64,000 nt of DNA, from contig CAWFOU010000007.1 in assembly GCA_963817525.1 (NCBI GenBank), positions 96,001 through 160,000 on the forward strand, given 5' to 3'. Of the stretch, positions 42,141-46,546 are shown one piece after another. The notes below the pieces were generated by a model. It had not been told where the DNA came from and did no database searches. It saw nothing but the letters and a program-made list of their open reading frames with translations. This stretch comes from an uncultured archaeon (GTDB lineage Archaea > Thermoproteota > Nitrososphaeria > Nitrososphaerales > Gagatemarchaeaceae). Position 1 is the first letter of the stretch, and every line of letters starts with the position of its first letter. A program made the translations under genes and the position numbers.

Positions 42141-42510
42141 CTGAACTGAAGCGGTCCCTCTTGGGAATATGAGAGCCAAACTCTACACTACGCGCCCCGC
42201 CTCTTCGGGCTTGGTCGTGAAGCAGCCGTATTCCAGCGACGTCAGCATGTTGTAGAAGGGAACCCTCCCCTGCCCGTAAAGAGCATCCCGAACCCCTTGT
42301 CTACGCGCTCGATGAAGGCCTTCTCCTGGTCTTTCTTTCGACTTCATGACGGGGTCGCGTATATGGCTCATCAGCCATAACAAACCTAAAGAGAAGAAAG
42401 GAAGCTATGCGCGATAGCCCACACCAGCACCGGCAGGGGTGAAGAGTTCCTCGATGCGCTGCGGGGACCGGCCGAGCGTCCCGATCCGGGCGCGCCAGGC
42501 GACATTTGAG

Positions 42511-42780
42511 ATGAAATATCGAAGCAGGGTCGCGATCGCTTCCAACATCCTGCAGGTGGCTCGAGCGGGGAACGCGACCAAGACCAGGCTGATGTACGGG
42601 TCGTTCCTCTCCTTCGCCCAAATCAACGAGTACCTGGACTTCCTGCAGCTTAACGGACTCATCGTCCTGAGCGGAGAGACCCGCGTATACGCCCTCACCG
42701 AGAAGGGCCTGCGCTTCCTTCGCATCTATGACGAGCTGAGCGCTTTGGTCCCGTTCGACGGGCCCGTCCCGCCCGTCTGA
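42511..42780 (+). CDS. Winged-HTH protein (archaeal HTH_45-type)
   Basis: MKYRSRVAIASNIL...TKTRLMYGSFLSFAQINEYL...TEKG. Confidence 0.8.
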   Translation: MKYRSRVAIASNILQVARAGNATKTRLMYGSFLSFAQINEYLDFLQLNGLIVLSGETRVYALTEKGLRFLRIYDELSALVPFDGPVPPV

Positions 42781-43161
42781 GCCCTTAATGTGGCGTCGCT
42801 GATGACGCGACTACCTGCTTCCGTCGGGCTTCACAGCTTGTCGATGGTCGAGGAAGGTATCGACCCCTTCTGGCCTATGGCCTCGACGATCTAGTTCACT
42901 TTACCTCTGCCCCACGTCATCCTCTATTTGATGTCCCCAGAACAGCGGAGAAAAGGAGAGGGTAGGCGACCTTGAAGGCTCGTCGAGGACAACCCGGCAA
43001 CTTACACGAGTGATTCCGGAAATCTGATTGCCGACCAGCAGTTCGATCGGAGAGTCGAGAGCGGGGGGAGGACCAAGTATCAGTCACTGCAAGAGAGAGG
43101 AAGTCTGGCAAAAGCGGTCCAAAAAAAACAATAAGGCAGATAAGAAAGATATCCGCATTCA

Positions 43162-43434
43162 TGTGAGGGCTCCAGGATGGCTCTTCGCCTTCCTGCTGAT
43201 GCGGAGGGGTGGGCACGGCTCGTTATTAGCCTAGCGACTCGACCGGGGTAGCAGCTCGCCACGCTCCGCTTTTACCGCATGCATTCGATAAGCGCTCCAC
43301 CTATGGTGGGCGTATTCTGACGATTCAACGGAAGCGGAGCATGCCACACTCAACGGGCAAAGCTCTCGGAGCTTGCGCTCCGCGCTCAGCGGATATAGAG
43401 TGGTCAGGCGTGCTGCCCTGTCCCGACTGTCGCG
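43162..43434 (-). ncRNA. Putative bridge/seek RNA of the IS110 element
   Basis: Stem-loops with internal loops. Segments at 43389-43396 and 43347-43356 match the left and right flanks of the insertion site. Confidence 0.7.
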
Positions 43435-44589
43435 CTAGGCTACGCCGCCACCTCCTCTCTCGAGGCCTTCGAGCTTCTTGTTCGTGAGCGCTTCGTTCTC
43501 CCACCTCCAGTGCTCCCTCGTCTTCAGGACGTGGTAGGTCATCCGGAGCAGCTTCTTCATCGCGAGGACGTGGGCTCGCTTGCCGCTCTTTGTCCTCTCC
43601 TTCTGGTGGACGTAGTACCGGTGGAGGTGGGGGTTCCAGTGCATGACCGTGTCGGTCATGATCCCGAGGGTCCACCTGGCTATCGACGGGCCGTCCTTGG
43701 ACATCCTGCCTCTCCTCTTCACGTTCGCGCTGTCGCGCGTCTCCGGTATGATCCCGAAGAAGCTCGCCAGGTGGTCGACCGTCGGGAAGCGGTTGACGTC
43801 CCTGACGTACGAGGAGAAGAGCGCAGCGAGATAGTAGTCCACCCCGGGGATCGTCATGAGGAGCTTCACGTCCTCGTTGTCCTTTACGAGCGCCTTGGTC
43901 CTCTCCTCGAGCGGAGCGCATCTCTCCTCGTAGAACGCGATCTTCTCCATCATCGTCTTCAGGACGAGGTCCCTGTCGTCGCCGAACCTGATCGACCTGA
44001 TCGCCTCCCTCCTCGCGGCGCTGAAGTTGTTGTTCGCCTTCGGGAGCGTCGCGTAGACGTCCTCTCTCTTGAGGTAGCTGATCGCCGAGCTCTTCGTCCT
44101 CGCGATCTCCACGCCGAGCTTCACCCGCTGAATCAGGAGGCCCCTCAGGGTCTGTTCCTCCCTCGTGAGGAGGTGCGACTCTGGCAGCATGTCCATGAAG
44201 AGTAGCCTCGCGATCTTCTCGGAGTCTGCCCTGTCGTTCTTCTTCTTGGACCTCACGATGAGCGCGAGCTCCTTCGGGTGGGCGACCGTGATGTTCTGAT
44301 ATCCCATCGCCCGCAGCCTCCTGTTGACGGGATAGGCCATCGTGCTCGCCTCGTACCCGATCCTCGCGTCCTTCGGTATCCTGCTGGAGAAGAGGGCGTA
44401 GCCCGCGTCGTCCATGGAGAAGTTGAACCTCTCCGATATCTCGCCCAGGACGGAGTACATCGTCGCGACGCTGAACTCTTCGCCCAGGTCCAGTCCTACG
44501 GCAGGTGTCCTCGGAACGCTCAGTTGGCTCATTGCCCTTCGAACTGTCCTCGTGTCGTTTTTCTCTTTCTTCGTTGTCATTCTCTTCAC
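43435..44589 (-). CDS. IS110-family transposase/recombinase
   Basis: VGLDLG, YEAS, KNDRADS, TIPGVD, FFGIIPETRDSA (catalytic Ser), GRMSK. Confidence 0.93.
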   Translation of the reverse strand: MKRMTTKKEKNDTRTVRRAMSQLSVPRTPAVGLDLGEEFSVATMYSVLGEISERFNFSMDDAGYALFSSRIPKDARIGYEASTMAYPVNRRLRAMGYQNITVAHPKELALIVRSKKKNDRADSEKIARLLFMDMLPESHLLTREEQTLRGLLIQRVKLGVEIARTKSSAISYLKREDVYATLPKANNNFSAARREAIRSIRFGDDRDLVLKTMMEKIAFYEERCAPLEERTKALVKDNEDVKLLMTIPGVDYYLAALFSSYVRDVNRFPTVDHLASFFGIIPETRDSANVKRRGRMSKDGPSIARWTLGIMTDTVMHWNPHLHRYYVHQKERTKSGKRAHVLAMKKLLRMTYHVLKTREHWRWENEALTNKKLEGLERGGGGVA

Positions 44590-45011
44590 CCTGACGCAGT
44601 AGCGACTCCCGTCCTGACGGGAGTCGCGGGCGAAGAGCCATCCGGAGGAGAGCCCTCACAATTCAGTCAACGGTATCAGAAGAGCGGCTGGATTAGGACG
44701 ACGGTGTCAACGATTCGCATGGGAACCCGGCCTTTACTTCTCCATCGTCCTGAAGAGGTACTCCTCGGCGTCCCCGTCCACGTGACCATTCAGCTTGCCC
44801 TGCAGTTGTTCACTCAACTTCAAGGCCAGCCTCTCGAGCTCGGCCCTTCACGGCTTCCTCTTCTCTTCCTGCTTAGGTTCCATGCCCTTGGCCTCCCGAC
44901 CTGGTCCCGTCCTGATAAGGTTGCCGCGCTCGGGTTTGGTTCTGTCCCGTTGACGGGCGATCCGCGAGCGTATCCCAAACTGGGTGATTTCGCCTTTGTC
45001 GTGGTCAGCCT

Positions 45012-45380
45012 TCAGTCGTCTTTCGGAGGGTCGATGAAGGTGTAAAGGGCGCTCATTCGCCCTCCGGTGACGACACCCACGTCCATCCCCGTAATATTCA
45101 TCGGTTCGCTCGGTGGCCCAAATGCCCACGAAAAGCGCCCGACGCCGTGAAACGCTTGTATCGGACCGAGTAAAGTAAAGAGATATCCGGGGAACTGATC
45201 ATGGAGGCTTGCGGCCGTCTCATCCAATTCTGCTTGGCCGTGATGAGGCCCGTCAAGATCGATGAAGACCCCGTCAGCAGTCCAGATATTCGCGATAGCG
45301 GCACGGCGTTTTTCTGCGTCACGCTCGTTGAACACCGTGTAGAGGTTCCGTTTGAGCAGGCTTTCTGTCATCTCTGGCAT
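45012..45380 (-). CDS. SnoaL/NTF2-like protein
   Basis: VFNERDAEKRRAAI...WTADGVFID...TGMDV. Confidence 0.8.
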   Translation of the reverse strand: MPEMTESLLKRNLYTVFNERDAEKRRAAIANIWTADGVFIDLDGPHHGQAELDETAASLHDQFPGYLFTLLGPIQAFHGVGRFSWAFGPPSEPMNITGMDVGVVTGGRMSALYTFIDPPKDD

Positions 45381-45722: not shown

Positions 45723-46546
45723 CTGCTCTGCCGCGCTGCCAAAGCCGCGAGCCGCGGGAGGCGGAGTCTGCCGGGCTCTTGAGGTCGGCAGGATGTCGGT
45801 ATAGACCTGGAAATCGGTCCAAAAAACACACAAGGGGGAGGGAATTAACTAACCCGCAACTCTCTACCTGCGCTCACATACGGCTACTGCGTCTCGATTC
45901 GATGTATTGGCAGCTTGGACGGAGGACGCTTCGGGCATGAGCTCGAGCAGGGTGGCCGACGGGACGAAGAGGTCTTTCAGGTCCGATGTAGAAGACGTAC
46001 TCGTTCGCTCTTTCGTATCGGGGGTCTTTGCTGTCCATGTGGGCGAATTAGGACGGCGGTGTCAAAGGTCTGCATTGGAGGAACCCGGCCGTCGCTTCCT
46101 GAAGAGGAGCTTCTCCGCATCCATTCTTCGTCCTGTCCAGGACGCGCATGCAGCGCCCTCCGACCACCCGGGGCTGTTTGATATTGGCGCGTCTACGGAT
46201 CTCCTAACGCGGGCGTGAGTGGTGAGGTAAATGTTCGGGGTGGTCGCGGCTCAGAATCATTGCCTCTAGGCACGAAGTAGCAATCGCGCAGCTCTGCCGC
46301 TTGGGCATAGCCGAAGCTACCCTGCTTCTCGGACGGCACACTCCTACTGGAGCGGGCCTCTGTTTTTTTGGGGGGGGTTGCTTTGGATAGCGGTCGAGAA
46401 GTACGCGGGGATATTTAACGCGGGCAGAGCGCGGCGGTTCCTGTCGCGCTTTCCATGACCTGGACACACTCGAGCCCAAAACACCCGGACGTCGCGAGCC
46501 GGTCAGGGCCGGGCCATGACGAAAAGGCGCGGGTGCCGATGGCAAA

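What the first reader, a model, noticed from the sequence alone, without database searches (positions are those of the whole stretch)
43157..44673. Archaeal IS110/IS1111 element whose non-coding RNA matches its own target site
Seen: the element is bounded by an ATTCA core at both ends and by subterminal inverted repeats. The reconstructed empty site is GATATCCGC-ATTCA-GTCAACGG. In the ~270-nt region downstream of the transposase (minus-strand RNA), an internal loop is closed by CACTC/GAGTG and capped by CGGAGC-GCAA-GCTCCG. One side carries ATATCCGC (43389-43396; 8/8 with the left flank). The other carries CCGTTGAGTG (43347-43356; 9/10 with the reverse complement of the right flank, partly overlapping the stem). 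A second stem-loop (CTCCGCTT/AAGCGGAG) contains the core TGAAT and may read the donor junction CTCACA-TGAAT-TGTGAG. Known: IS110 bridge/seek RNAs guide recombination this way. The transposase looks intact, so this is a candidate programmable archaeal recombinase with widely spaced guides.
Basis: partly seen in the sequence, partly recalled or inferred. Interest (0 to 1): 0.75.

Follow-up and report, generated by a model that had tools for sequence, protein, structure and literature searches.

The report
Archaeal IS110 element with bridge RNA
An intact jumping gene of the IS110/IS1111 kind in a soil archaeon carries a folded RNA whose loops spell out its own insertion site; it is a well-supported but ordinary new member of the RNA-guided recombinases described in 2024.

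Summary
The element is real. It is a 1,510-bp IS110-family insertion sequence (body 43158-44667, minus strand) in a Nitrososphaerota (Thaumarchaeota) genome. It has an intact 384-aa DEDD transposase, subterminal inverted repeats and a 277-nt non-coding region downstream of the gene. The genome holds three 99.7%-identical copies, all in one repeated terminator-like hairpin just after host stop codons. The non-coding region folds into a conserved RNA with two internal loops (19 relatives, 23 of 33 pairs with compensatory changes). In 17 of 17 non-redundant relatives the 5' strand of loop 1 pairs 7-9 of 9 with that element's own right flank. Its 3' strand repeats the left flank, and the 3' strand of loop 2 repeats the element's own right end. 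This is the bridge/seek RNA logic with the IS1111-type strand order. Uninterrupted target copies, one in this genome, read CCGT-TG-CGGATAT. The shared core is therefore the dinucleotide TG (CA on the + strand), and both ATTCA copies lie inside the element. The right-donor guide is unresolved. RNA evidence is limited to metatranscriptome contigs. Verdict: a new member of a known kind.

The parts
43158..44667 (-). Body of the insertion sequence (1,510 bp), bounded by one copy of the core dinucleotide on each side
   Evidence: Occupied junctions compared with uninterrupted target copies. Three copies at 99.7% identity in the genome.
43156..43157 (-). Core dinucleotide at the right-end junction (CA on +, TG in transposase orientation)
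   Evidence: The only bases shared by both junctions and the uninterrupted target CCGT-TG-CGGATAT.
44668..44669 (-). Core dinucleotide at the left-end junction
   Evidence: As above. TG precedes the left end in 19 of 19 left junctions listed.
43435..44589 (-). Transposase/recombinase gene, 384 aa, intact
   Evidence: Pfam PF01548 (31-174) and PF02371 (242-326). NCBIfam NF033542 'IS110 family RNA-guided transposase', 162.5 bits against a cut-off of 140. D34, E80, D119, D122 and S287 are invariant in 5 relatives.
43229..43440 (-). Bridge/seek RNA core. An outer helix that overlaps the transposase stop codon encloses two stem-loops, each with an internal loop.
   Evidence: Fold. Consensus of 19 relatives: 33 pairs, 93.6% of cells paired, 23 pairs with changes on both sides, 0 of 500 shuffles as good, slid controls 8-10 pairs. 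Frequent G-U pairs fix the strand.
43389..43396 (-). Right-target guide, 5' strand of loop 1 (AUAUCCGC). [quoted passage not shown]
   Evidence: 8 of 9 here, 7-9 of 9 in 17 of 17 relatives. Cross-pairings average 5.23. 0 of 20,000 permutations reach the observed sum.
43351..43357 (-). Left-target guide, 3' strand of loop 1 (CCCGUUG). It has the same sense as left flank + core, so it pairs with the bottom strand.
   Evidence: 6 of 7 here, 5-7 of 7 in 12 relatives. For the 5 nt upstream of the core the identity sum is 49, against 23.1 +/- 3.8 when permuted (0 of 20,000).
43281..43286 (-). Left-donor guide, 3' strand of loop 2 (GAAUG = right end GAA + core), plus one base (C) that equals the first base of the right flank
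   Evidence: Identical to each element's own right end plus core through 7 different end sequences. The extra base equals the first right-flank base in 14 of 17.
43317..43321 (-). Candidate right-donor guide, 5' strand of loop 2 (GUCAG). Unresolved.
   Evidence: GUCA is complementary to core + left-end AC, and UCAG to left-end CTGA. One joint change is seen (UCAA with TTGA in L043/L041). No consistent longer pairing.
43162..43189 (.). Subterminal inverted repeats of the right end (11-bp outer 43162-43172, 15-bp inner 43175-43189)
   Evidence: The inner repeat is conserved across relatives.
44629..44660 (.). Subterminal inverted repeats of the left end (inner 44629-44643, outer 44650-44660), followed by the 7-nt extension ACTGAAT (44661-44667 on the minus strand)
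43121..43156 (-). Host target: terminator-like hairpin (43136-43156) and T-run (43121-43128) directly downstream of the right end
   Evidence: Terminator-like site flagged on the minus strand at 43156-43136. Folds. The same module lies at the C8, C1 and G186 copies.
44676..44678 (-). Stop codon (TGA) position of the host reading frame that ends 7 nt before the insertion point
   Evidence: Conserved CTGA in the left flanks. At sister sites an ORF ends 7-8 nt before the hairpin. In the window itself the frame is only a remnant.

Best explanation
This is an active-looking insertion sequence of the IS110 family with the IS1111-type layout, living in a Nitrososphaerota archaeon.

Proposed mechanism. 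The DEDD/serine recombinase is made from the minus strand. Directly after, and overlapping, its stop codon lies a ~210-nt bridge (seek) RNA. The RNA has two internal loops.

- Loop 1 reads the target. [quoted passage not shown] - Loop 2 reads the excised element's joined ends. [quoted passage not shown]
- The left end is read either by a short GUCA/UCAG stretch or by protein contacts with the subterminal repeats.

Recombination at the shared TG puts the element between the stop codon of a host gene and the first base of its terminator-like hairpin, always in the gene's orientation. Read-through transcription could then feed the element, and the host hairpin and T-run could end its transcript.

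Shown here: the anatomy, the copies, the target, the RNA structure, and the covariation of guides with flanks and with the right end.

Inferred from IS621, ISEc11 and related work: that the RNA binds the recombinase, that a circular intermediate forms, and the strand-exchange chemistry.
For: Protein: Pfam PF01548 + PF02371 and NCBIfam NF033542 above its cut-off.

Copies: three at 99.67-100% identity. All 6 differences lie in the gene and none in the non-coding RNA region.

Target:
- The same ~60-bp module flanks every copy.
- 13 uninterrupted modules occur in same-genus genomes, plus an exact 13-mer in this genome.
- The module is found in 10 of 21 other same-genus genomes and 0 of 39 genomes of nine other genera, with controls at 0.

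RNA: z -3.63 alone. In 19 relatives 23 of 33 pairs have compensatory changes, against 8-10 for slid controls.

Guides:
- Right-target guide: 7-9 of 9 pairs in 17 of 17 elements, with about 14 different flanks. Cross-pairings average 5.23 (n=256, none reaches 9). Permutation 0 of 20,000.
- Left-target guide: 49 against 23.1 +/- 3.8, 0 of 20,000.
- Left-donor guide: identical to the right end + core in every lineage.
- In L009 the first core base is C in the left-target guide, the left-donor guide and the junction alike.

Strand order: the top-strand match lies 5' of the bottom-strand match, as reported for IS1111 seekRNAs (PMC11187229, section 9).

RNA libraries: a 253-nt metatranscriptome contig covers 43163-43415 with no differences, and another covers 43348-43500.
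Against: - There is no biochemical or genetic test.
- The RNA evidence is contigs from RNA libraries only. DNA carry-over is not excluded, and no silent control stretch could be laid.
- The RNA's ends and promoter are unknown, and no promoter-like site was seen (scans bacterial sigma-70 consensus only).
- No convincing right-donor guide was found.
- Guide matches are weaker in L053 and L007 (7 of 9). The left-target guide matches only 5 of 7 in L008, L051, L040 and L043.
- The right-target score takes the best of three registers. The same rule was applied to the controls.
- The relatives share descent, so the permutation counts overstate independence. The left-donor guide and the right end sit on the same molecule.
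- No strictly orthologous empty site was found for any copy. The core assignment rests on paralogous copies of the target module.
- An exact target in the same genome is unoccupied.
Confidence: 0.85

Rival explanations
1. The element is bounded by a 5-bp ATTCA (TGAAT) core or duplication, and the empty target is GATATCCGC-ATTCA-GTCAACGG. On this reading the loop-2 segment GAAUGC reads the target rather than the donor.
For: ATTCA is present at both ends. CCGUUGAGUG matches the flank plus ATTCA region at 9 of 10.
Against: - The 21-mer has 0 matches in the genome at up to 3 mismatches.
- 13 of 13 uninterrupted modules lack ATTCA and GTC.
- An exact CCGTTGCGGATAT is contiguous in this genome.
- In relatives the two 5-mers differ between the ends (TGATT/TGAGT, TGACT/TGAGT, TGTAT/TGCGT). 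Only TG is shared.
Confidence: 0.04
2. Target-only guide RNA. The RNA selects the target, as first described for seekRNAs. The element's ends are recognised by the protein through the long subterminal repeats. The identity between loop 2 and the right end would serve something else, for example recognising the integrated right junction for excision.
For: - No consistent right-donor guide was found.
- The inner repeat GGMTGKCYCTTCGCC is conserved at both ends across relatives, as a protein site would be.
- The base after the loop-2 core match equals the first flank base in 14 of 17. That fits the integrated junction better than the circle junction.
Against: - The loop-2 3' strand copies 3-5 variable end bases plus the core in every lineage.
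- Loop 2 has the same internal-loop geometry as loop 1.
- Durrant et al. report donor-binding nucleotides in IS1111 bridge RNAs (PMC11208160, passages).
Confidence: 0.12
3. No RNA guide. The non-coding region is a 3' UTR or terminator structure, and the matches to the flanks are chance or a by-product of the palindromic target. The protein alone finds the hairpin.
For: The target is a hairpin, so both senses of GCGGATAT occur near the site. The 8-mer alone is not beyond chance in the window.
Against: The guide segments change in step with about 14 unrelated, mostly non-palindromic flanks. The surrounding stems stay conserved with compensatory changes.
Confidence: 0.02

Closest known systems
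IS1111-group elements with seekRNA (ISEc11, ISPa11, ISKpn4; Siddiquee et al. 2024, PMC11187229: outline and sections 6, 9, 13 read)
   Same: Subterminal inverted repeats with short terminal extensions. The long non-coding region lies downstream of the gene. The RNA segment that pairs with the top strand lies 5' of the one that pairs with the bottom strand, and the two overlap at the crossover point. The target is a specific repeated sequence.
   Different: The protein is 384 aa, against the 330-350 aa stated for IS1111 transposases. The serine motif reads G-IIP-ETRD-SA rather than GL-P----S(t)G. The host is archaeal. The RNA is not similar enough to be found by any Rfam model. Protein similarity to those elements was not measured here.
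IS621 / ISCro4 bridge recombinase and bridge RNA (Durrant et al. 2024, PMC11208160; Hiraizumi et al.; PDB 8wt6, 9t56)
   Same: A two-loop RNA, one loop for the target and one for the donor. Each loop reads both strands and includes a dinucleotide core. It is a DEDD + serine recombinase family.
   Different: - In IS621 the RNA lies upstream of the gene, and the 5' strand of each loop pairs with the bottom strand. Here the RNA is downstream and the order is reversed.
- The core is CT in IS621 and TG here.
- The protein match is weak and C-terminal only (E about 5e-6).
ISHvo9-family transposase of Haloferax volcanii pHV4 (best named hit in the plasmid collection)
   Same: An archaeal IS110-family transposase, alignable over 87% of the length.
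   Different: Only 29.6% identity. Its ends, RNA and target were not examined here.
IS110/IS1111 elements that insert into repetitive extragenic palindromes (IS621, ISPpu9, ISPa11; titles and abstracts, reference lists)
   Same: Insertion at a fixed position of a repeated hairpin outside genes.
   Different: Here the repeat is a genus-restricted, terminator-like hairpin + T-run that follows stop codons in an archaeon.

Membership tests
IS110 family (DEDD RNA-guided transposase) | N-terminal DEDD_Tnp_IS110 domain plus C-terminal Transposase_20 domain | tested here: met
   PF01548 at E 5.2e-08 (31-174) and PF02371 at E 2e-19 (242-326). NF033542 equivalog at 162.5 bits against a cut-off of 140.
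IS110 family (DEDD RNA-guided transposase) | Catalytic D-E-D-D and a serine in a G--P----S motif | tested here: inconclusive
   D34, E80, D119, D122, G279, P282 and S287 are invariant in 5 relatives. S287 aligns with the serine of ...YESG... in ISCro4. Calling these the catalytic residues rests on spacing recalled from IS621, not on a structure-based alignment.
IS110 family (DEDD RNA-guided transposase) | Site-specific insertion with a short core shared by target and element, and no long target duplication | tested here: met
   A TG core follows from the junctions and the uninterrupted targets. Four or five independent insertions share one target.
IS1111 group | Subterminal inverted repeats of 7-17 bp | tested here: met
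   An 11-bp repeat lies 4 nt from the right end and 7 nt from the left end, plus an inner 15-bp repeat.
IS1111 group | The longer non-coding region lies downstream of the transposase gene | tested here: met
   277 nt downstream (43158-43434) against 78 nt upstream (44590-44667).
IS1111 group | In the RNA the top-strand match lies 5' of the bottom-strand match | tested here: met
   compared with PMC11187229 section 9.
IS1111 group | Transposase of 330-350 aa, related over its full length to that of IS1111, with a GL-P----S(t)G motif | tested here: not met
   The protein is 384 aa and the motif reads GIIPETRDSA. No IS1111-group reference protein was available to align, so relatedness was not measured. 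For this reason I file it under the IS110 family with an IS1111-type layout, not as a proven IS1111-group member.
Bridge / seek RNA | A structured RNA with internal loops whose strands covary with the target flanks | tested here: met
   Structure. Right-target and left-target guides.
Bridge / seek RNA | A second loop whose two strands read the joined ends of the element (the donor) | tested here: inconclusive
   The 3' strand equals the right end + core in all lineages. The 5' strand shows only a 4-nt candidate and one joint change.
Bridge / seek RNA | The RNA is expressed and binds the recombinase | tested here: inconclusive
   Contigs from two peat metatranscriptome runs of one study cover the region. 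DNA carry-over is not excluded. Binding cannot be tested with these tools.

The most novel reading that the evidence does not exclude
This thaumarchaeal clade could be a three-guide variant of bridge recombination. The RNA would read both target arms and the right end of the element, while the left end is recognised by the protein through the long subterminal repeats. The element would depend on its host gene for expression. It lands exactly between a stop codon and the terminator-like hairpin, its RNA's outer helix overlaps the recombinase stop codon, and the host hairpin would end the transcript. If so, it would be a native programmable recombinase from a phylum that, to my recollection, has no genetic tools.
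Probability: 0.2. Interest if true: 0.5.

Novelty: new member of a known kind. Interest (0 to 1): 0.35.

Why it matters
The finding gives a clean natural data set for an archaeal lineage of RNA-guided recombinases: 17 related elements with about 14 different targets, each spelled out in the RNA. The lineage is only about 30% identical to any named insertion sequence found here.

The finding fixes the element's real ends, its TG core and its guide layout. A reprogramming experiment needs exactly these.

The element also sits in a group of soil and peat archaea for which a native programmable integrase could be useful. That last point is my own judgement and comes from no call.

The finding does not change the picture of how IS110/IS1111 elements work.

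Tried and rejected
Steps that led nowhere or to a negative result:

- Rfam (E up to 10 over 42500-45300): 5 matches, all far below their gathering scores (best 21.4 against 52). None is a bridge RNA.
- Orthologous empty sites:
  - Searching the C8 flank in 23 same-genus genomes found only the ~45-nt repeated module.
  - The flank of the G054:C6 copy found nothing in 6 other genomes.
  - The flank of the G054:C4 copy found partial orthologues in G102 and G072, but synteny ends about 100 nt before the site and no target-like site follows.
- Column-by-column covariation between the MAFFT RNA alignment and the flanks was underpowered, because gaps put the guides out of register. It was replaced by anchor-based extraction.
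- A 6-mer complementarity scan for a right-donor guide gave no position shared by most elements.
- Genome-contig scan with the single protein: only 2 loci, both already known.
- RNA runs: shares of words were small (0.06-0.22). Only contigs could be laid, and parts without cover say nothing. One run (X2) covers only pieces of the gene. No control stretch could be laid because the cap is one call.
- Not done: structure prediction, complex prediction, wide protein searches and a tree against IS1111 and IS110 reference proteins. No IS1111-group reference sequence was available without typing from memory.
- Supplementary files of PMC11208160 and PMC11187229 (lists of predicted bridge RNAs and targets for ISfinder elements) could not be seen. 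They may already hold related archaeal entries.
- Literature searches for thaumarchaeal IS110 or bridge RNA listed no paper on it by title or abstract. PMC3379541 mentions IS110 once and was not read.
Full report
WHAT IS THERE.

Window 43157-44673 holds an insertion sequence on the minus strand. Its ORF at 43435-44589 (384 aa) carries the two IS110 domains, PF01548 and PF02371. It also passes NCBI's equivalog model NF033542, 'IS110 family RNA-guided transposase' (162.5 bits, cut-off 140). The only solved relatives, ISCro4 and IS621, match weakly and only in the C-terminal half (E about 5e-6). The best named hit in the plasmid collection is the ISHvo9 family of Haloferax, at 29.6% identity.

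The host is archaeal. The same-genus copy lies on a record titled 'Thaumarchaeota archaeon', and a near-identical one on a 'Nitrososphaerota archaeon' record.

COPIES AND TARGET.

The genome holds three copies at 99.67-100% identity: C7 (the window), C8 and C1, the last at a contig end. The six differences all lie in the gene. One is a 1-nt insertion that breaks the C1 copy. The non-coding region is identical in all three.

All copies, plus an 86%-identical one in G186 and a 97%-identical metagenome copy (L039), sit in the same sequence. This is a ~60-bp module made of a hairpin and a T-run. The module occurs in 10 of 21 other genomes of the genus and in 0 of 39 genomes of nine other genera of the family, with reversed-pattern controls at 0. 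The element itself was found in 3 of 23 genomes of the genus.

The hairpin is flagged as terminator-like on the minus strand at 43156-43136 (folds). At sister sites it starts 7-8 nt after the stop codon of ImmA/IrrE-like (HELGH) or VapC-like reading frames.

THE TRUE ENDS.

Thirteen uninterrupted modules run ATATCCGC directly into AACGG (7), AATGG (3) or close variants (3). None has ATTCA or GTC between. This genome also has an exact, unoccupied CCGTTGCGGATAT at C7:92800-92812, and a one-mismatch copy in the same module at C7:998986.

Set against the occupied junctions, only TG is common to the target and to both junctions. In transposase orientation the target is CCCGT-TG-CGGATAT. The left end begins ACTGAAT + TGTGAGGGCTC, and the right end finishes GAGCCCTCACA + TGAA. 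On the + strand the body is 43158-44667, with CA at 43156-57 and 44668-69.

Its reconstructed empty site does not exist in the genome. Relatives agree: the 5-mers next to the repeats differ between the two ends of one element, while TG is shared.

No strictly orthologous empty site was found. The core assignment therefore rests on paralogous module copies.

THE RNA.

The 277-nt region downstream of the gene folds well on its own (z -3.63). I collected relatives from the same order (29 of 201 genomes at E <= 1e-20) and from metagenomes (L039-L054 at 54-97% identity).

Nineteen non-coding regions align and share seven helices. Of 33 pairs, 93.6% of cells are paired and 23 pairs have changes on both sides. 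0 of 500 shuffles reach this, and slid controls give 8-10 pairs. Many G-U pairs show that the RNA is on the transposase strand.

The architecture is an outer helix whose 5' strand includes the recombinase stop codon. It encloses two stem-loops, each with an internal loop. This is the two-loop plan of bridge RNAs.

GUIDES.

I extracted the loop strands by conserved anchors and compared them with each element's own junctions.

(a) Loop 1, 5' strand. [quoted passage not shown] The best of three registers was taken. Cross-pairings scored the same way average 5.23 (sd 1.26, n=256; 10 reach 8, none reaches 9). 0 of 20,000 permutations reach the observed sum. In the window this strand is AUAUCCGC (43389-43396) against G + CGGATAT.

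(b) Loop 1, 3' strand. It has the sense of left flank + core (CCCGUUG, 43351-43357) and matches 5-7 of 7 in 12 elements. For the five bases upstream of the core the identity sum is 49, against 23.1 +/- 3.8 when permuted (0 of 20,000).

(c) Loop 2, 3' strand. It repeats the element's own last 3-5 bases plus the core. Seven different end sequences are each copied in the RNA: GAA, GAG, GCG, ATG, ACG, GGG and GTC. These two features lie on one molecule, so the identity counts rather than the permutation figure.

(d) Extra bases.
- The base after that core match equals the first base of the right flank in 14 of 17.
- The base after the left-target guide is A in all rows, like the first base of the left end.

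This resembles the handshake principle described for IS621 (PMC13626964, passages). It was not shown to be the same thing.

(e) Loop 2, 5' strand. It offers only GUCA or UCAG against core + AC or CTGA of the left end, with one joint change in the L043/L041 clade. The right-donor guide is unresolved.

COMPARISON.

In IS621 the 5' strand of each loop pairs with the bottom strand, and the RNA lies upstream of the gene (PMC11208160, passages). In IS1111-type elements the non-coding region is downstream, subterminal repeats are present, and the top-strand match lies 5' of the bottom-strand match (PMC11187229, sections 6 and 9). The element here has the IS1111-type layout on all three counts. Its protein, however, is longer than the 330-350 aa given for that group, and its serine motif ends in SA.

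Bridge RNAs were predicted in 93% of ISfinder IS1111 elements. 662 archaeal IS110 recombinases are catalogued. Large-scale mining of bridge RNAs across bacterial and archaeal genomes is under way. The finding is therefore a new member of a known kind.

EXPRESSION.

Three peat metatranscriptome runs, from two studies, hold parts of the element. When laid, one gives a 253-nt contig over 43163-43415 with no differences. One gives a 153-nt contig over 43348-43500. One gives two 151-nt contigs inside the gene. These are contigs, DNA carry-over is possible, and no control stretch could be laid. This is a weak hint that the region is transcribed, in one case continuously with the end of the gene.

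VERDICT.

Its boundaries, core and donor reading are corrected. The mechanism is inferred by analogy with IS621 and ISEc11 and is not tested here. Confidence in the bridge/seek-RNA reading is 0.85, and interest is 0.35.

Noticed in passing
window 43108-43156; L002, L119-L141: A genus-restricted ~60-bp module: hairpin GCGGATAT-N5-ATATCCGC, then CTCTCTTC, a T-run and GGACC. It follows the stop codons of several unrelated small genes (ImmA/IrrE-like, VapC-like). It behaves like an archaeal counterpart of repetitive extragenic palindromes or a shared terminator cassette. One genome (G215) has at least 6 copies and no copy of the element.
   Followed up: partly
G000:C7:92800-92812 (about 3.2 kb before the window start) and G000:C7:998986-998998: Unoccupied sites in the same genome that match the inferred target CCGTTGCGGATAT exactly or with one mismatch, inside a variant of the same module.
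   Followed up: partly
window 44602-44627 (minus strand): A strong hairpin (GCGACUCCCG-UCAGGA-CGGGAGUCGC) lies between the left-end repeats and the start codon. It is conserved with compensatory stem changes in relatives. Its loop keeps GUCAG, the same pentamer as the 5' strand of RNA loop 2. Function unknown.
   Followed up: no
L044 (also L042, L045, L046): In one subgroup the left junction has TG but the right junction has CG. The RNA's left-target guide ends in UG, while its left-donor and right-target guides carry CG. Target and donor cores may therefore differ in the first base, or exchange may fall between the two core bases. In L009 all three read CG.
   Followed up: partly
L128 (G221:C184), at the insertion point of the module: At the point where the element inserts, this module carries about 39 nt of unrelated sequence that ends ...GCGAAT before GCGGATAT. 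The ending resembles the element's right end ...ATGAAT. It may be a remnant of a related element.
   Followed up: no
G000:C1:1164387-1165901: The third copy has a 1-nt insertion (aligned to window position ~44140) that splits the transposase frame, and it ends at a contig end.
   Followed up: yes
L002:3000-3401 (G000:C8, next to the second copy): The ImmA/IrrE-like gene upstream of the C8 copy changes frame at its HELGH motif, so it is a frameshift or an assembly error.
   Followed up: no
window 44691-44780: The flank beyond the left end is itself repeated. It matches G000:C7:1280912-1281001 at 93% and more weakly window ~46047-46090. It looks like a remnant of the VapC-like gene family.
   Followed up: no
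window 43435-44589 (protein residues 209-337): A weak sub-threshold match to NF052498, the TIGR-Tas RNA-guided endonuclease (E 4e-05, 23.7 bits against a cut-off of 100). This is in line with the published Nop-domain kinship of IS110 recombinases.
   Followed up: no
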